64,000 nucleotides of DNA, taken from assembly GCF_022846255.1 (NCBI RefSeq), contig NZ_AP025682.1; one strand, 5' to 3'. The notes beneath the pieces are model-generated. The model was given only the letters and a program-made list of their open reading frames with translations, searched no databases and had not been told where the DNA came from. Position numbers and translations under genes: made by a program. Position 1 is the stretch's first letter. Each line of letters starts with the position of its first letter. This document shows positions 23,917 to 29,101 of the stretch, in pieces. The stretch comes from Escherichia coli (GTDB lineage: Bacteria > Pseudomonadota > Gammaproteobacteria > Enterobacterales > Enterobacteriaceae).

Positions 23917-24842
23917 GTATTCGCATAATCCCGCAAGATGAGCTGGGTTCGAGCGAGAAACGTACGGCGGATATGATTCCGCCGTTATTGTTCCCTCGGC
24001 TCAAGAATTTATACAACCGCCGCGCCGAGCGTCTGCGCGAGCTGGCAGAAAATAATCCGCTGGGTGATTACCTGCGCTTTGCTGCGCTTATCGCCCACGC
24101 CCAGGAAGTGGTGCTGTACGACCATCCGCTGGAAATGGATTTGACCGCACGCATTAAAGAAGCCAGCGCACAAGGCAAGCCCCCGCTGGATATTCACGTT
24201 CTGCCGCGTGATAAGCACTGGCAAAAGCTGCTGATGGCGCTGATTGCTGAGCTGAAACCTGAAATGAGCGGCCCGGCGCTGGCAGTGATTGAGAATCTGG
24301 AGAAGGCATCGACTCAGGAGCTGGAAGATATGGCCAGCGCACTGTTTGCCTCTGATTTCTCGTCCGTCAGCAGCGATAAAGCGCCGTTTATCTGGGCTGC
24401 GCTGTCGCTCTATTGGGCGCAGATGGCTAATCTGATCCCCGGCAAAGCCCGCGCTGAATACGGCGAACAACGTCAATATTGCCCGGTATGTGGCTCTATG
24501 CCGGTGTCCAGCATGGTGCAAATTGGCACCACTCAGGGTCTGCGTTACCTGCACTGCAACCTGTGTGAAACTGAATGGCACGTAGTGCGCGTAAAATGCA
24601 GCAACTGTGAACAGAGCGGCAAACTGCATTACTGGTCGCTGGATGACGAACAGGCCGCGATTAAAGCCGAAAGCTGCGATGACTGCGGCACTTACCTGAA
24701 GATTCTTTATCAGGAAAAAGAACCGAAAGTTGAAGCCGTGGCAGATGACCTCGCCTCTCTGGTACTGGACGCGCGAATGGAGCAAGAAGGCTATGCCCGT
24801 AGTTCCATTAACCCGTTCCTGTTTCCGGGTGAAGGGGAGTAA
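23913..24842 (+). CDS. fdhE: Formate dehydrogenase formation protein FdhE
   Basis: 309 aa; paired CxxC motifs ([33 protein letters not shown]). Confidence 0.95.
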
Positions 24843-24930
24843 TCTCTGACGTTTTCCGGGTGGCGCTGGTCGCCCGGATTACAGCTCATAGGGTGTGACG
24901 ACACCTGCTATTCCCGCAAAATCTCTCGTA

Positions 24931-24975
24931 TTTCGCGAGGCGTTTTCCAGATATGATGTAACAGTTGCAGTTATT
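24931..24975. repeat. Copy A of a ~45-bp intergenic repeat
   Basis: tttcgcgaggcgttttccagatatgatgtaacagttgcagttatt; 36/45 identical to copy B; its 5' half matches copy C. Confidence 0.6.
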
Positions 24976-25057
24976 ATAAGTTCAAGTAAAACAGCCTTGT
25001 ATTAATACCAGAATAAGGGCATCTGGTTTTTTATATTCATGAATAAAAAAACTTTTG

Positions 25058-25276
25058 TCATTCCTTATGCTGCTTACATAGTTCTTCAACACCAACTGCC
25101 TCGTCCCTTTGCCTGCCGCCTTTTGCCTTACGCACCGGAAATTGCTGCCGCTCCAGATATTGCTCTACCGCTTCGCGTAAAATTGCAGAGCGCGAAACCT
25201 TACGCCATCCCCGAAGCTTGTTCAGCCGTTTAATTGCCTCTTCTGATAAATGAAGAAAAACCGTATTCATCGCCAT
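25058..25276 (-). CDS. yiiE: Ribbon-helix-helix (CopG-family) small regulator; I take it to be YiiE, but YiiE versus YiiF cannot be settled from memory
   Basis: MAMNTVFLHLSEEAIKRLNKLRGWRKVSRSAILREAVEQYLERQQ...; RHH beta-strand/helix pattern; 72 aa from the internal Met. Confidence 0.65.
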   Translation of the reverse strand: MAMNTVFLHLSEEAIKRLNKLRGWRKVSRSAILREAVEQYLERQQFPVRKAKGGRQRDEAVGVEELCKQHKE

Positions 25277-25370
25277 TACCACCACCTTACATATATTACT
25301 CATTAATGTATGTGCGAAAATTACGCCGGAAAGTTAATTAACGAAAGCGGATTTTTTCATATTGTTTTGT

Positions 25371-25415
25371 TTTTGCGAGACGGCATCCAAAGATAATGTA
25401 ACAGTTTCAGTTATT
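25371..25415. repeat. Copy B of the ~45-bp intergenic repeat
   Basis: ttttgcgagacggcatccaaagataatgtaacagtttcagttatt. Confidence 0.6.
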
Positions 25416-25671
25416 TCAATTGTTACTCAAAAATGGTTTATTACTTTTAATTAAGCGGGGGCACATCTACAGGAAAGAAACAACAAATAATAAGGATGAA
25501 TTATGGATGCTATAAATATTTTATATTCAAGAATATTTTTTGATTGGGTCTTCATTTGCTTCATCAGGATGGTGTACCCGAAAAAGTCAGCAGCTTTACC
25601 GCACCAGGGTTTAAGGTGAAATCTACCATTCATAACGACCGGTCAGTGCCGCACCAACCGGTCTTTAATTG

Positions 25672-25950
25672 TTAGTAGTAGTAAATTTGTGGATAACAGT
25701 CCGGGAACCAGACGATTCCTTCCGGATCATCCCCCTGCATTACCCGATGACATTGGCGTCGATCATCTGCGCGACGGCGAAGCGTAGTATAGAGCCGCTT
25801 CCATTCATGATCGCCCGGTGTACTGTAGTTTACCCAACAATCCATTGAAGGGTGACGCCATTTACCTGTAAGTGTTGGGATCCCTGAATGCTTATGCGGC
25901 TTCGCTTTACCATTACGATCCCTATCTTTACGCGTATTAAACGTGGACAT
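25672..25950 (-). CDS. Hypothetical small protein (92 aa), His/Cys/Trp-rich; possibly the 3' part of a frameshifted gene
   Basis: ORF MSTFNTRKDRDRNGKAKPHKHSGIPTLTGKWRHPSMDCWVNYSTPGDHEWKRLY...; AT-rich context; no recognisable family. Confidence 0.3.
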   Translation of the reverse strand: MSTFNTRKDRDRNGKAKPHKHSGIPTLTGKWRHPSMDCWVNYSTPGDHEWKRLYTTLRRRADDRRQCHRVMQGDDPEGIVWFPDCYPQIYYY

Positions 25951-26011
25951 TTTTAGTCTCCTGTTAAGAGTTCTAAAAATGTGCTTCCTTAAAATAGTTC
26001 ATCATTTTCCC

Positions 26012-26224
26012 TTAATTCGCATAGCGTGCTTTTGCACGAATTTCCGATACGCGGGGACCATTATGATAGCGTCGATGCCCACACATCCAACAAGAACAAA
26101 TACAGGGAGTACGAAAGCAAATACCTGATGCTTTTTTGCTTCCATCGCCTGCAGTGCGATAACGACAGCGGATTTTTTTTAATCGCACCATATGATGGCG
26201 ACGTTCAGCACGATTACGGGTCAT
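26012..26224 (-). CDS. Hypothetical Cys-rich small protein (70 aa), possible zinc-ribbon
   Basis: ORF MTRNRAERRHHMVRLKKIRCRYRTAGDGSKKASGICFRTPCICSCWMCGHRRYH...; same strand as, and 60 bp upstream of, the 92-aa ORF in a different frame. Confidence 0.3.
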   Translation of the reverse strand: MTRNRAERRHHMVRLKKIRCRYRTAGDGSKKASGICFRTPCICSCWMCGHRRYHNGPRVSEIRAKARYAN

Positions 26225-26308
26225 AGCAAAACTCCTGAGCAGGCGGCACTATGCCGCTTTCATAGGAGTTCTGAATGCTGGTGCTTTCTGTATGGCATAA
26301 CCATGCCT

Positions 26309-26599
26309 CTAACGGTTAAGTGCTTGCAGCACATGTTGCGGATCATTGGCAATCGCTCGCAGCAAAGCCTTTGCAGGCCCGGTCGGTGAACGTCGCCCCT
26401 GCTCCCAGTTACGCAACGTGTCTACGCTTACGGAAATAAGATCGGCAAATTTAGATTGTGACAACCCTGAAGCGCGGCGTATTTCTTTGATTTTCATAGC
26501 ATCAACTTCAAAAGTCCGTGAAGGCTGTCGCGTTCCTTCAATAATTTCATTCATCTGGGCCATGCTGTGAGTCAACCGCTCAAAAAGTGCCTTATCCAT
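26309..26599 (-). CDS. HTH (XRE-type) antitoxin, HigA-2-like
   Basis: HTH segment IKEIRRASGLSQSKFADLISVSVDTLRNWEQGRRSPTGPAKALL; start codon abuts the stop of the upstream toxin ORF. Confidence 0.7.
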   Translation of the reverse strand: MDKALFERLTHSMAQMNEIIEGTRQPSRTFEVDAMKIKEIRRASGLSQSKFADLISVSVDTLRNWEQGRRSPTGPAKALLRAIANDPQHVLQALNR

Positions 26600-26911
26600 T
26601 TACCACCTCGTATTTAACAACCGGAGCATTGCTTTTTCCTGGGGAGACAGATCATCTTTAATACCCTTACGATAAATAAGCAGTAATCTGATCTCATAAT
26701 GTTTAACCTGATGAAAGTAAATAACCCTGACACCAGCACGTTTCCCCTTTCCTCCTGAGACCCATCGAACCTTTCTTAACCCACCAGTTTCAGGTATTAC
26801 CTCACCATAGTCAGGATTCAAGGCCAGGAAAAACTGAAAACGACTGAATTCATCGTCGTTCAGCAGTTTTTGAACATCTTCAGTAAAAATTTCCGTTTCG
26901 ATGAAGAGCAT
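26600..26911 (-). CDS. Type II toxin, RelE/ParE superfamily, HigB-2-like
   Basis: 103 aa; ...ETGGLRKVRWVSGGKGKRAGVRVIYFHQVKHYEIRLLLIYRKGIKDDLSPQEKAMLRLL... matches the conserved core of the Vibrio HigB-2 family; toxin-first gene order. Confidence 0.7.
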   Translation of the reverse strand: MLFIETEIFTEDVQKLLNDDEFSRFQFFLALNPDYGEVIPETGGLRKVRWVSGGKGKRAGVRVIYFHQVKHYEIRLLLIYRKGIKDDLSPQEKAMLRLLNTRW

Positions 26912-27030
26912 AATTATACGCCATTGGCTTAGAGTAACAATCCTTTTTGTACGTCATTGACGTACCATTGAAACCACTAGCTTACTGATAGTGCTCCAGC
27001 AAAACCACGTCTCTGCCGGGTTTGTCTTTA

Positions 27031-27053
27031 CATTTGCGAGGCGCTTTCCAGAT
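27031..27053. repeat. Copy C (5' half only) of the ~45-bp intergenic repeat
   Basis: catttgcgaggcgctttccagat, 21/23 match to the 5' half of copy A. Confidence 0.5.
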
Positions 27054-27127
27054 TTTTCACGCCCGTGAATTTCCCTGTATCCATCCAGCAAAAACGGGTG
27101 TATAAAACTGTACATTCATACAGCAAA

Positions 27128-28048
27128 ATGAGTTCTACTATGGCACTGGAAAAAGGAATTGCAGAGTTAGTCGAAGAGTTTATCGCTGCGGGTCGCCCCT
27201 CATCGCGCCAACAAAGTATTACGCAGCGCAGAGAGGGCTATATCGCCAGCGCTGTCCTTGCGGGTGAGACAGAAACGCGGGTAGATATTCAGACTATCGA
27301 ACTTGAAGGGATGACCTTACGAATAGTGTCACCGCTGAATGCCCCGACATTACTCCCGACGATAATTTATTACTACGGTGGCTGTTTTGTTAGCGGCGGG
27401 TTCGCAACTCACGACAACCAGCTGCGCCAGTTAGCCTATTACGGGCAATGTCGGATTATTGCCGTCCAGTATCGGCTGGCACCGGAACATACTTTCCCCG
27501 CCGCCCATGATGATGCACAACGAGGTGCAGAATTAGTCCGGCAACACGCCGAACGACTCGGCGTTGATAAACAACGAATAACTCTTGCCGGTGACAGTGC
27601 GGGAGGGCATCTGGCGCTGGTAACTGCTTTGCGATTGAAGCGTGCTGGCGAGTGGCAACCAGCACAACTCATCTTAATTTATCCTATGCTTGATGCGACT
27701 GCGCATTTCGAAAGCTACATACGCAATGGTCACGATTACATCATCACACGCGACACTTTACTGAGCGGCTTTGAGATGTACCTGCCAGGCATTGAACGCA
27801 GGCATCCTGAAGCCAGCCCTATTTGGCGCAATGATTTCAATGGCTTGCCACCTGTACATATCATTACCGCTGAATACGACCCACTTTGCGATGAAGGTGA
27901 AGCGTTGTATCACCGCATGACAGGGCAAGGAGTGCAATGCACCTGCCAACGCTACCTTGGCGTTATCCACGGATTTTTTCAGTTAGGTGGTATCAGTGAG
28001 GCTGCGCGATCGGCGCTACGGGATGTTGCCTGGAGAGCGGGAAGGTAA
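27128..28048 (+). CDS. Alpha/beta-hydrolase, hormone-sensitive-lipase-type esterase (Aes-like)
   Basis: Oxyanion-hole motif YYYGGCFVSGG (HGG-type) and nucleophile elbow GDSAGG; C-terminal HGF; start placed at ATG 27128 (MSSTMALEKG), alternatives at 27065 (GTG) and 27140. Confidence 0.7.
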   Translation: MSSTMALEKGIAELVEEFIAAGRPSSRQQSITQRREGYIASAVLAGETETRVDIQTIELEGMTLRIVSPLNAPTLLPTIIYYYGGCFVSGGFATHDNQLRQLAYYGQCRIIAVQYRLAPEHTFPAAHDDAQRGAELVRQHAERLGVDKQRITLAGDSAGGHLALVTALRLKRAGEWQPAQLILIYPMLDATAHFESYIRNGHDYIITRDTLLSGFEMYLPGIERRHPEASPIWRNDFNGLPPVHIITAEYDPLCDEGEALYHRMTGQGVQCTCQRYLGVIHGFFQLGGISEAARSALRDVAWRAGR

Positions 28049-28111: not shown

Positions 28112-29101
28112 CTACTCTTCTTCGTTTCCGCCCTCTTCATACGGACCAAATGGCTTCGCGGGCAGAACGATATACGTGCCTTCAAACACTGCACCCGGCG
28201 TCTCGTCGCCAAAGATTTCGACCTGCATTTGTACCCGCGCTTTTCGTCCGCGCGCCAGACGGTCGAGATCGCCACTTAAGGCACCAAGGTCGGCTACCGC
28301 ATGGGGTTTACCACTAATCGGTTTGCTATAGCGGATATGCGCATCCGCCAGAATAATCGTTCCGCCGAGGTGGCGTTCGCGCAGCATCAGCCAGATAAGC
28401 CCCCAACCGGTGAGCGTAGCCAGCGAGAATAAACTCCCGGCAAACAGCGTGTGATGCGGATTCTGATTGCCGGTTTCCGGCATGGTGGTGATAAATTTTT
28501 GCCCGGTATATTGCTGAATGCGCACACCCATTTTTTCGCTTAACGGGATATGTTCATACCACGCTTGCTGGAGCTGGGCGCACCAGTCGCCGCGATGAAG
28601 AATATCATCCAGAGTGGCAACAGGTTTTATCATCAAAAAATGGCGAATCGGCGTGGTGGTTGGCGTGGTGATTTCACCCTGATTAACAAACCCCAGCTTG
28701 GCGAAAAACTCCACCGCGTCTTCACGGGCGCTACAGGTCACGCGCTTAACGCCTTCCTGACGTGCCACCGACTCCAGGGTCATCGCCATCAGCGTGCCTA
28801 ACCCTTTGTCCTGCACGTCGGGATGAACGGCCATAAAGCGAATGGACGCTTCATTGTCGGCATTAATATACAGTCGGCCTACCGCTACCAGATTACCCTG
28901 CTCGTCGACGACCATCTGGTGATGCGCCATCGCATCCCACGCGTCGCGTTCCGAACCTTTTGGTTGATGCAGGGGCTTACGCAACATTTCCCAGCGAAAC
29001 TGATAGTAACGCTCTAATTCTTCTTCTGTTTGTGGAACCCGAAGGTGATACATAGCGATACTCTCTCTTGTTTCCCGTGACAACCCTGGAAGCTGGCTCA
29101 T
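28112..29101 (-). CDS. yiiD: GNAT acetyltransferase / hotdog thioesterase fusion protein YiiD (FabY)
   Basis: 329 aa; [56 protein letters not shown]... Confidence 0.9.

What the first reader, a model, noticed from the sequence alone, without database searches (positions are those of the whole stretch)
24931..27053. Three copies of a ~45-bp repeat, each in a different intergenic gap of the island
Copy A (24931-24975) and copy B (25371-25415) are 36/45 identical; copy C (27031-27053) matches the 5' half of A at 21/23. All three sit in non-coding gaps, each 60-80 bp upstream of a plus-strand start codon: the 64-aa ORF antisense to yiiE, a 38-aa ORF at 25503, and the esterase. B and C also lie about 100 bp upstream of minus-strand genes (yiiE, the TA operon). 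The conserved core acagtt(g/t)cagtt is a short direct repeat. Candidates are a shared promoter/operator (for example for the RHH regulator or the antitoxin) or cassette-boundary scars from successive insertions at one site.
Basis: seen in the sequence. Interest (0 to 1): 0.55.

Follow-up and report, generated by a model that had tools for sequence, protein, structure and literature searches.

The report
Sxy-dependent CRP sites flanking toxin-antitoxin cassettes
The three "repeats" are copies of a 22-bp binding site for the CRP-Sxy competence regulator (a CRP-S site) in front of small regulator, toxin-antitoxin and esterase genes in a variable E. coli locus; this is a known kind of site, but it links the island to the competence and SOS responses and marks where strains have lost cassettes.

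Summary
The repeat is real. Copies A and B match at 36/45. It has two layers.

The half shared by all three copies (window + strand TTTGCGAGGCGyTTTCCAGA) matches the published E. coli CRP-S motif TGCGA-N6-TTCCA, the Sxy-dependent CRP site. It is 18/22 and 16/22 identical to the validated sxy and ppdD sites. The same 22-mer lies upstream of radC in almost every E. coli genome examined. Near-exact copies occur at more than 20 other loci in Enterobacteriaceae, often beside toxin-antitoxin cassettes.

The half shared only by A and B (the acagttNcagtt part) comes from the tandem duplication that produced the paralogous RHH genes yiiE and yiiF.

Copy C is a consensus site between the esterase and relE-like/nadS promoters. 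Copy B, upstream of yiiE, is decaying. Copy A is an orphan left by a vapBC (yiiF) deletion.

Strain comparisons show three deletions with breakpoints inside these sites.

It is not an RHH or antitoxin operator, a σ54 promoter, a structured RNA or a dispersed repeat element. No evidence supports it being an active integration site.

Sxy/CRP dependence is inferred, not shown. Verdict: new member of a known kind, moderate interest.

The parts
27032..27053 (.). Copy C: consensus CRP-S site ATT-TGCGA-GGCGCT-TTCCA-GAT, between the divergent relE-like/nadS operon and the esterase gene
   Evidence: 10/10 half-site positions against the published motif T4G5C6G7A8-N6-T15T16C17C18A19. 20/22 to the 22-mer consensus. 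Conserved at the orthologous position in Citrobacter, Superficieibacter and Enterobacter while the flanks diverge.
25371..25392 (.). Copy B, proximal half: degenerate CRP-S site TTT-TGCGA-GACGGC-ATCCA-AAG, 95 nt upstream of yiiE
   Evidence: 9/10 half-site positions and 16/22 to the consensus. The K-12 allele of the same site is intact: TTTTGCGAGGCGTTTTCCAGAA.
25393..25415 (.). Copy B, distal half (ATAATGTAACAGTTTCAGTTATT): shared only with copy A; part of the yiiE/yiiF duplication unit; function unknown
   Evidence: Absent from copy C and from all other loci that carry the 22-mer.
24931..24952 (.). Copy A, proximal half: orphan CRP-S site of the deleted vapB(yiiF)-vapC operon, TTT-CGCGA-GGCGTT-TTCCA-GAT (T4 changed to C at the deletion junction)
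   Evidence: In K-12 and strain CUVET16-465 the same site (TGCGA) lies 93 nt upstream of yiiF/vapB. The junction is shown.
24953..24975 (.). Copy A, distal half (ATGATGTAACAGTTGCAGTTATT): duplication-unit homology with copy B
24879..24937 (-). 3' remnant of vapC, fused to copy A through TTTCGCG/TTTTGCG microhomology
   Evidence: Window 24800-24937 is 97.8% identical to the fdhE end plus vapC 3' end of CUVET16-465. Junction alignment.
25058..25276 (-). yiiE, an RHH (CopG-family) protein and paralog of YiiF/VapB
   Evidence: Annotation. 41% identity to YiiF over 54 aa, E = 5e-12. PF01402 in homologs.
25318..25323 (-). Predicted -10 (TAATTT) of a CRP-S-dependent P1 promoter of yiiE, 47 nt from the site edge (site centre about -70.5)
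   Evidence: A TAnnnT hexamer sits at the identical offset (+48) in yiiE, yiiF, the relE-like gene, the Citrobacter relE-like gene and vapB of two other genera: 7 hits against a background of 0.83 per offset. This is a prediction only; no TSS data.
25290..25312 (.). Operator-like palindrome CATATATTA-CTCAT-TAATGTATG overlapping a second -10 (TAATAT), just upstream of the yiiE start codon (P2-like)
   Evidence: Read from the sequence. Not part of the repeat.
26600..26911 (-). RelE-like toxin gene, first gene of a toxin-first operon
   Evidence: Annotated as RelE/ParE family in strain GPEC856. Weak Pfam RelE match, E = 0.006. phrog_5869, E = 4e-27.
26309..26599 (-). nadS: HTH (NadS/MqsA-like) antitoxin gene
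   Evidence: NCBIfam NF041265, 60.7 bits against a cut-off of 60.
26979..26984 (-). Predicted -10 (TAAGCT) of a CRP-S-dependent P1 promoter of the relE-like/nadS operon, 47 nt from the site edge
   Evidence: The Citrobacter ortholog has TAAGGT at the same offset.
26913..26940 (-). Strong σ70-type promoter (TTGTTA-16-TATAAT) that ends 2 nt before the toxin ATG; a P2-like promoter
   Evidence: 10/12 match. The palindrome TACGTCATTGACGTA at 26950-26964 lies just upstream.
27101..27123 (+). Esterase promoter: -10 TATAAA (27101-27106) and LexA-box-like CTGTACATTCATACAG (27108-27123)
   Evidence: Both elements, and their distance from the CRP-S site, are conserved in four genera while the intervening sequence is not.
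27140..28048 (+). Alpha/beta hydrolase (hormone-sensitive-lipase family esterase)
   Evidence: Annotation. NCBIfam LipP1-like, E = 1.5e-70, below the curated cut-off.

Best explanation
The element shared by all three copies is a 22-bp CRP-S site. This is the asymmetric, low-affinity CRP site (TGCGA-N6-TTCCA) at which cAMP-CRP activates transcription only together with the competence co-activator Sxy.

Inferred mechanism: when Sxy is present, CRP-Sxy binds the site and activates, in class I fashion, promoters whose -10 elements lie 47 nt from either edge of the site (site centre about -70.5). Copy C would serve the esterase gene, which also carries a LexA box, and probably the divergent toxin-first relE-like/nadS operon. 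Copy B would serve yiiE. Copy A served vapB(yiiF)-vapC before that operon was deleted in this strain. Each unit also has a second, operator-overlapping promoter next to its start codon, the same two-promoter layout described for hicAB.

The extra 23 bp or more shared only by A and B exist because yiiE and yiiF are tandem paralogs whose whole upstream regions were duplicated. The function of that part is unknown.

As a side effect, these near-identical 22-bp sites act as short direct repeats at which deletions remove whole cassettes, which produces much of the mosaicism of the fdhE-fabY locus.

Shown: motif identity, similarity to validated sites, conservation, spacing and deletion junctions. 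Inferred: CRP-Sxy binding, promoter positions and regulation.
For: (1) Sondberg et al. 2019 (PMC6728893) give the E. coli CRP-S motif of Sinha 2009 as T4G5C6G7A8-6N-T15T16C17C18A19. They describe it as asymmetric, orientation-independent and at class-I-like distances. Copy C matches 10/10 half-site positions; A and B match 9/10.

(2) Against the 22-mer consensus TTTTGCGAGGCGCTTTCCAGAA, the validated Psxy site scores 18/22 and the EMSA-validated ppdD site 16/22, spacer included. Copies C, A and B score 20, 19 and 16. No other position among 128,000 in the window exceeds 15.

(3) The copy present in 5424 of 5426 E. coli genomes lies about 70 nt upstream of radC. radC is a competence-regulon gene whose enterobacterial orthologs were analysed for CRP-S sites (PMC1635313). 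That paper also notes that enterobacterial half-sites lacking C6 have G6, as here.

(4) The exact 19-mer gave 88 hits in 100,044 species genomes, against about 17 expected by chance by my estimate. About 50 of them are in Enterobacteriaceae, at 20 or more unrelated flank contexts and in both orientations relative to neighbouring genes.

(5) Footprint of the esterase promoter in four genera: only the site, the -10 and the LexA box are conserved, and their spacing is conserved.

(6) A TAnnnT hexamer lies at exactly +48 from the TGCGA edge in seven related units, against a background of 0.83.

(7) Precedent: hicAB P1 (CRP-S) with P2, H. influenzae toxTA, and Sxy induction of chpSB, higBA and hokD.

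(8) For the A-B layer: YiiE and YiiF are 41% identical, the units repeat every 438-440 bp, and homology continues outside the 45-mer.

(9) Deletion junctions lie inside the sites.
Against: There is no expression, TSS, ChIP or EMSA evidence for these particular sites. The primary regulon paper (Sinha 2009) could not be read here, so it is unknown whether yiiE/yiiF were Sxy-induced. Copy A has lost T4 and has no gene to regulate. Copy B has a diverged spacer and A15, so it may be non-functional in this strain. The near-invariance of the whole 22-mer, spacer included, across unrelated loci is stronger than usual for a transcription-factor site. It could also reflect common descent or mobility of the cassettes. 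Promoter positions rest on weak -10 hexamers (TAATTT, TAAGCT). The +48 regularity comes from evolutionarily related units, so the seven cases are not independent. Other Sxy-induced TA promoters (higB, hicA) show only TGGAA-N6-TTCC(A/T) sites that score 12-13/22.
Confidence: 0.78

Rival explanations
1. The repeats are operators bound by the locus's own RHH protein (YiiE/YiiF) or by the NadS antitoxin, giving shared autoregulation.
For: The sites lie upstream of RHH and TA genes at a constant distance of about 95-120 nt. The A/B distal half contains a short direct repeat (CAGTTnCAGTT) and a TAAC-N7-GTTA symmetry that an RHH protein could bind.
Against: The half common to all three copies also occurs upstream of radC, sxy and ppdD and next to relBE, higBA-like, ccdAB-like, RhuM and PTS genes that have no RHH partner. 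Typical operator palindromes overlapping -10 elements lie elsewhere: 25290-25312 for yiiE and 26950-26964 for relE-like/nadS. The distal half is absent from copy C and from vapB homologs in other genera. This idea remains possible only for the A/B-specific distal half.
Confidence: 0.07
2. The 22-mer is an attachment or crossover site of a cassette-insertion system. It would mark the 5' boundary of mobile TA cassettes that integrate one after another, like an integron without an integrase.
For: Each unit in the array starts with a copy. At the same position different genera carry different TA cassettes right after the site: relE-like/nadS or vapBC at fabY-fdhE, and ccdAB-like or higBA-like after one shared upstream gene. 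TA-plus and TA-minus alleles at nrdG-cybC differ by a segment that carries the site. Two natural deletions cross over exactly inside sites.
Against: The radC-coaBC copy is never interrupted in 5424 genomes. The motif is essentially absent from true plasmids. No recombinase gene is linked. There are n sites for n cassettes, not n+1, and no second-end motif. The third junction is 7-bp microhomology inside vapC, as in illegitimate recombination. In the nrdG-cybC and ilvY-ilvA loci the site points away from the TA genes. The esterase-side footprint shows the site belongs to a conserved promoter.
Confidence: 0.08
3. The core is a σ54 (RpoN) promoter: CTGGAAAGCGCCTCGCA has GG and GC at the -24/-12 spacing.
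For: GG-N10-GC spacing and 10 of 13 consensus positions match TGGCACG-N4-TTGCW (reading of the sequence).
Against: Genome-wide σ54 ChIP-seq in K-12 lists no site at yiiE, yiiF or the radC-coaBC core. The nearest sites are a different sequence 923 bp from dfp and one inside fdoI (PMC4591121). The motif lacks the conserved C after GG and the T before GC. The spacer is conserved, which σ54 does not require.
Confidence: 0.02
4. The repeat encodes a structured RNA (leader, sRNA or riboswitch-like element) or a small peptide.
For: Constant distance to start codons. Short upstream ORFs can be drawn in the leaders, for example MKKSAFVN in copy B's leader.
Against: Folding energies are no better than shuffles, with z from -0.5 to +1.3. 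No Rfam family is matched, the best E-value being 2.6. No reading frame is open consistently across loci. The site works in both orientations relative to genes.
Confidence: 0.02

Closest known systems
CRP-S site of the E. coli sxy promoter (Jaskolska & Gerdes 2015; analysed in Sondberg et al. 2019, PMC6728893)
   Same: 22-bp asymmetric site. ATTTGCGAGGCTCTTTCCGAAA is 18/22 identical to the consensus of the copies here. The TGCGA half is promoter-proximal, and the site ends 125 nt from the ATG, like copy C relative to the relE-like gene.
   Different: That site is experimentally proven to need CRP and Sxy; the sites here are only predicted. The second half is TTCCG there and TTCCA here.
hicAB P1/P2 promoters of E. 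coli K-12 (Turnbull & Gerdes 2017, as summarised in PMC6957337) and toxTA of Haemophilus influenzae
   Same: A toxin-first TA operon with an upstream CRP-S-dependent promoter and a downstream antitoxin-repressed promoter. The relE-like/nadS operon here has a CRP-S site at -120 from the ATG, plus a strong promoter and palindrome abutting the toxin start codon.
   Different: The TA families are unrelated. Here one site lies between two divergent units (TA operon and esterase), and several cassettes stand in tandem, each with its own site. Regulation is untested.
ppdD (type IV pilin) CRP-S site (Cameron & Redfield 2006, PMC1635313)
   Same: It shares TTTGCGAGGCGTT, including the spacer, with the yiiE/yiiF copies and is 16/22 to the consensus. 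CRP binding was shown by EMSA and Sxy-dependent induction by qPCR.
   Different: Its second half-site is ACGAA, and it controls a DNA-uptake gene rather than a TA or regulator cassette.
Integron attC sites / pdif modules (cassette boundary sites)
   Same: A short conserved sequence at the edge of each small cassette in a tandem array, many of them TA modules. Cassettes are lost by recombination between the sites.
   Different: No integrase or Xer-type architecture, no inverted-repeat structure, and no n+1 arrangement. The sites are not on plasmids. One chromosomal copy is never used for insertion.

Membership tests
CRP-S site (Sxy-dependent CRP site, E. coli type) | 22-bp CRP architecture: two 5-bp half-sites separated by 6 bp | tested here: met
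   A: CGCGA-GGCGTT-TTCCA. B: TGCGA-GACGGC-ATCCA. C: TGCGA-GGCGCT-TTCCA.
CRP-S site (Sxy-dependent CRP site, E. coli type) | One half-site TGCGA, with C6 instead of the canonical T6 | tested here: met
   Present in B, in C and in the K-12/CUVET allele of A. Window copy A has CGCGA because of the deletion junction. Motif as quoted in PMC6728893.
CRP-S site (Sxy-dependent CRP site, E. coli type) | A second, less conserved half-site TTCCA (G6 on the opposite strand, never T6), making the site asymmetric | tested here: met
   TTCCA in A and C; ATCCA in B. The G6 rule comes from PMC1635313.
CRP-S site (Sxy-dependent CRP site, E. coli type) | Resemblance to experimentally validated sites beyond chance | tested here: met
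   Psxy 18/22 and ppdD 16/22 to the consensus of the copies. The window background maximum is 15/22 over 128,000 positions.
CRP-S site (Sxy-dependent CRP site, E. coli type) | Class-I-type position upstream of a promoter, independent of orientation | tested here: inconclusive
   -10-like hexamers lie 47 nt from both edges of copy C and from the TGCGA edge in yiiE, yiiF, vapB and the relE-like genes, putting the site centre at about -70.5. No TSS data could be retrieved.
CRP-S site (Sxy-dependent CRP site, E. coli type) | Transcription of the downstream gene requires both CRP-cAMP and Sxy; CRP binds weakly on its own | not testable with these tools
   Needs expression or binding experiments. 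Sinha et al. 2009 (microarray list) is not in the held library.
CRP-S site (Sxy-dependent CRP site, E. coli type) | Occurs in taxa that have Sxy (Enterobacteriaceae, Pasteurellaceae, Vibrionaceae) | tested here: met
   About 50 of the 88 exact 19-mer hits are in Enterobacteriaceae. The rest are scattered single hits consistent with the chance expectation of about 17.
Antitoxin/RHH autoregulatory operator | Site specific to the promoter of the protein's own operon, usually a palindrome or repeat overlapping -35/-10 | tested here: not met
   The shared 22-mer is found at many unrelated genes. It is not palindromic and lies 50 nt or more upstream of the operator-like palindromes.
Site-specific recombination site (attC/att/dif-like cassette boundary) | Linked recombinase, insertion polymorphism at the sites, a site on both sides of each cassette | tested here: not met
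   No recombinase gene is annotated in any fdhE-fabY allele fetched that lacks an IS or transposase insertion. The radC-coaBC site is uninterrupted in 5424 genomes. No copy follows the last cassette. Only deletions are documented.
σ54 promoter | σ54 holoenzyme binding at GG-N10-GC | tested here: not met
   The spacing fits, but K-12 ChIP-seq lists no peak at the three K-12 copies (PMC4591121).
Dispersed repetitive element (REP/BIME, ERIC, MITE) | Tens to hundreds of copies per genome, palindromic or with terminal inverted repeats | tested here: not met
   1-8 places per E. coli genome, median 4; 3 in K-12 derivatives. No hairpin.
Tandem gene duplication (explains the A-B-specific half) | Paralogous genes, constant unit length, homology continuing through the flanks | tested here: met
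   YiiE and YiiF are 41% identical, E = 5e-12. Copies are 438-440 bp apart. Upstream regions align over about 200 nt.

The most novel reading that the evidence does not exclude
Near-invariant CRP-S sites are more than regulatory sites. They could be the portable short-homology sequences through which small TA and accessory cassettes are gained, swapped and lost at enterobacterial chromosomal hotspots (fdhE-fabY, infA-clpA, nrdG-cybC, ilvY-ilvA). That would give an integron-like cassette array without an integrase, whose members are all wired to the competence (Sxy) response.
Probability: 0.12. Interest if true: 0.7.

Novelty: new member of a known kind. Interest (0 to 1): 0.4.

Why it matters
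This result assigns a concrete, testable regulator (CRP-Sxy, plus LexA for the esterase) to a hypervariable E. coli islet whose genes are uncharacterised: yiiE, yiiF/vapBC, a relE-like/nadS pair and an esterase. It extends the known link between toxin-antitoxin modules and the competence regulon from a few K-12 and Haemophilus cases to several TA families in several enterobacterial genera. It also explains the strain-to-strain mosaic of the fdhE-fabY locus as deletions between, or into, 22-bp regulatory sites. It does not reveal a new kind of element.

Tried and rejected
σ54 promoter: the spacing fits, but published ChIP-seq shows no binding.

σ70 promoter inside the core, either strand: no workable -35/-10 combination. 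The consensus scan found only a weak TTGAAA-18-TATCTT overlapping copy B.

Structured RNA: no Rfam hit and no folding signal.

Coding remnant: the frame GKRLAK is open at the 3' end of some upstream genes (for example the gene upstream of RhuM in Enterobacter), but no frame is consistent across loci.

Xer/dif-like, Tus-Ter, marbox, IHF, LexA and DnaA motifs were compared by eye and did not fit.

Integration hotspot: rejected for the radC-coaBC copy. Plasmid origin: rejected.

TSS evidence: the Cappable-seq supplement is truncated before this region. Thomason 2015 and Sinha 2009 are not held. Romero 2014 has no entry. Adams et al. report only an fdhE-side 3' end antisense to yiiF. A literature search for yiiE/yiiF gave nothing relevant to the repeat.

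hofM promoter: the consensus scan did not pick up the two sites predicted there, so the consensus used here does not capture all CRP-S sites.
Full report
**Context.** The window is E. coli: 24800-28150 is 100% identical to an ST80 clinical isolate. The finding lies between fdhE (+, ends 24842) and fabY (-, 28112-29101). The gene order is: yiiE (RHH, - 25058-25276); a 92-aa hypothetical gene (- 25672-25950); nadS (HTH antitoxin, - 26309-26599); a RelE-like toxin gene (- 26600-26911); and an alpha/beta-hydrolase gene (+ 27140-28048). This interval is highly variable among 5,424 complete E. coli genomes. K-12 has yiiF-yiiE and a remnant. Other strains have vapC-vapB(yiiF)-yiiE, yiiE-higBA, yiiF alone, or the full set.

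**Observation check.** A (24931-24975) and B (25371-25415) are 36/45 identical. Simulated 64-kb sequences never gave more than 29. The copies are on the same strand and in non-coding DNA. The 'acagttNcagtt' motif is in A and B only.

**Two layers: the A-B half.** In K-12 the two full copies lie 93 and 95 nt upstream of the start codons of yiiF and yiiE. YiiE and YiiF are paralogs, 41% identical with E = 5e-12. The units repeat every 438-440 bp, and their upstream regions align well beyond the 45-mer. The A-B similarity is therefore that of a tandem duplication. In strain CUVET16-465 yiiF is the antitoxin gene of an intact vapBC pair. In the window that pair is deleted and copy A is its orphaned upstream region, fused to the last 59 nt of vapC through TTTCGCG/TTTTGCG microhomology.

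**Two layers: the shared half.** The half shared with C is a discrete block of about 22 bp that is invariant among eight aligned upstream regions.

**The shared block is not locus-specific.** An exact search for its 19-mer core (CTGGAAARCGYCTCGCRAA on the gene strand) in 100,044 species-representative genomes gave 88 hits, against roughly 17 expected by chance (my estimate). About 50 were in Enterobacteriaceae, at 20 or more loci with unrelated flanks. Conservation is confined to about 22-24 bp.
- Neighbouring genes include vapBC, relE-like/nadS, higBA-like, ccdAB-like and relBE modules, and also a RhuM gene, a PTS transporter and DUF1016.
- E. coli genomes carry 1-8 copies, median 4. K-12 derivatives carry three: yiiF, yiiE, and one between radC and coaBC.
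- The motif is essentially absent from genuine plasmids.
- The radC-coaBC copy is never interrupted in 5,424 genomes.

**Identification.** Read on the window + strand, the block is TTT-TGCGA-GGCGCT-TTCCA-GAA. Sondberg et al. 2019 quote the E. coli CRP-S motif of Sinha et al. 2009 as T4G5C6G7A8-6N-T15T16C17C18A19. They describe it as asymmetric, functional in either orientation, and at class-I-like distance from the start site (PMC6728893). Cameron & Redfield 2006 add that enterobacterial half-sites lacking C6 always have G6, as the second half does here (PMC1635313). Copy C matches all ten half-site positions; A and B match nine.

I fetched two experimentally validated sites for comparison. 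The sxy promoter site (ATTTGCGAGGCTCTTTCCGAAA) is 18/22 identical to the consensus of the copies, and the ppdD site (ATTTGCGAGGCGTTACGAAGAA) is 16/22, spacer included. C, A and B score 20, 19 and 16, and the radC site scores 20. Nothing else in the window's 128,000 positions exceeds 15. radC is a classical competence-regulon gene.

Sxy-dependent regulation of TA operons has precedent. hicAB has a CRP-S promoter P1 and an antitoxin-repressed P2. H. influenzae toxTA is similar. Sxy overexpression induces chpSB, higBA and hokD.

**Promoter anatomy (predicted).** I aligned the esterase upstream region from E. coli, Citrobacter, Superficieibacter and Enterobacter. Only three things are conserved: the CRP-S site, a -10 (TATAAA, 27101-27106) and a LexA-box-like CTGTAyATkCATACAG (27108-27123). 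Their spacing is also conserved. This puts the site centre near -70.5 and suggests joint Sxy/CRP and SOS control of the esterase.

On the other side of copy C, and downstream of the yiiE, yiiF and vapB copies, a TAnnnT hexamer sits exactly 47 nt from the TGCGA edge. This occurs in seven units, against a background of 0.83 per offset, but the units are evolutionarily related and so not independent.

Closer to the start codons lie separate operator-like palindromes overlapping stronger -10 elements: 25290-25312 for yiiE, and 26950-26964 plus TTGTTA-16-TATAAT for the toxin-first relE-like/nadS operon. This is the P1/P2 layout known from hicAB. No TSS data could be obtained.

**Recombination.** Three natural variants have breakpoints in the sites.
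- Strain Trh52 lacks 25383-27032 through a crossover inside copies B and C.
- Strain 23CRST038 lacks yiiE through a crossover in the 22-bp identity of the yiiF and yiiE sites.
- The window's own vapBC deletion ends in copy A.

All three are losses. I found no evidence of site-directed gain. The array has one site per cassette, with none after the last cassette.

**Rejected alternatives.**
- RHH or antitoxin operator: the site occurs at unrelated genes, and the palindromes are elsewhere.
- σ54 promoter: the spacing fits, but K-12 ChIP-seq is negative.
- Structured RNA: no Rfam match, and folding is no better than shuffles.
- Coding remnant: no consistent reading frame.
- Dispersed repeat element: copy number is too low.
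- Integration site.

**Limits.** CRP-Sxy binding and regulation of these particular sites are inferred. Sinha et al. 2009 could not be read, so the K-12 yiiE/yiiF and radC sites may already be listed there. The function of the A/B-specific distal half is unknown. Copy B is partly decayed in this strain and copy A is a relic.

**Verdict.** The 'scar' reading describes a side effect: deletion breakpoints. These are new or unverified members of the known CRP-S class, in an interesting setting: tandem TA/RHH cassettes and an SOS-boxed esterase.

Noticed in passing
window 27101-27123 (also L046, L054, L079): The esterase (alpha/beta hydrolase) promoter carries a LexA-box-like CTGTACATTCATACAG directly after its -10. 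The box is conserved in Citrobacter and Enterobacter (CTGTATATTCATACAG, CTGTATATGCATACAG) and nearly so in Superficieibacter. This suggests an SOS-regulated esterase that also has a CRP-S site.
   Followed up: partly
window 26913-26964: The relE-like/nadS operon is toxin-first. It has a 10/12 σ70 promoter whose -10 ends 2 nt before the toxin ATG, preceded by the palindrome TACGTCATTGACGTA. A transcript from it could hardly translate the toxin, which recalls the antitoxin-only P2 transcripts of hicAB and toxTA.
   Followed up: partly
window 26012-26224 (-): An unannotated 70-aa ORF between the 92-aa hypothetical gene and nadS matches phrog_4499 (unknown function) at E = 1.4e-13, so it may be a missed gene. 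The neighbouring 92-aa protein (25672-25950) has no Pfam, NCBIfam or PHROG match, and K-12 keeps only a pseudogene fragment of it.
   Followed up: partly
window 24879-24937; L001 2600-2870; L004 3080-3696: K-12 yiiF is the orphan antitoxin of a vapBC pair. Strain CUVET16-465 has vapC intact. K-12 has REP elements where vapC was and keeps only its last codons. The window strain lost vapB and most of vapC.
   Followed up: yes
L026, L035, L042, L017, L064 (infA-clpA interval of Enterobacter, Lelliottia and relatives): The same 22-mer marks one edge of a variable interval. In different species the interval is empty, holds a higBA-like TA pair, or holds an Hcp-containing islet. The left flank is conserved up to the site and the content after it varies.
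   Followed up: partly
L009, L028, L036, L061 (Enterobacter): Here the 22-mer lies inside the 3' end of an upstream ORF (…AIQTPRPGKRLAKSNTNHLA*), directly before a RhuM-family gene. I guessed the ORF is a type I restriction hsdM, but this was not verified. The protein tail may be encoded by inserted DNA.
   Followed up: no
L104 232-253 and L100 267-288: Upstream of K-12-type higB and hicA (both reported Sxy-induced) there are TGGAA-N6-TTCC(A/T) sites (TTCTGGAATCGCGTTTCCATAA and TTATGGAATCTTCCTTCCTGAT), about 150 and 110 nt from the start codons. I could not check whether these are the published CRP-S sites.
   Followed up: no
L015, L065, L081: Contigs filed under an uncultured Clostridiales bacterium, Robinsoniella and Bacillus coahuilensis carry E. 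coli-like yiiF/fdhE sequence. This is probably contamination of those assemblies.
   Followed up: no
PLSDB records NZ_OL790696.1, NZ_CP141089.1, NZ_CP134663.1: Several 4.8-4.9-Mb E. coli chromosomes are filed as plasmids in the plasmid collection. This inflates 'plasmid' hit counts for chromosomal motifs.
   Followed up: no
K-12 yiiF (L001 2872-3114): Adams et al. (bioRxiv 10.1101/2020.07.18.207399) list a strong RNA 3' end antisense to yiiF. It is probably the end of the convergent fdoGHI-fdhE transcript reaching into the islet.
   Followed up: no
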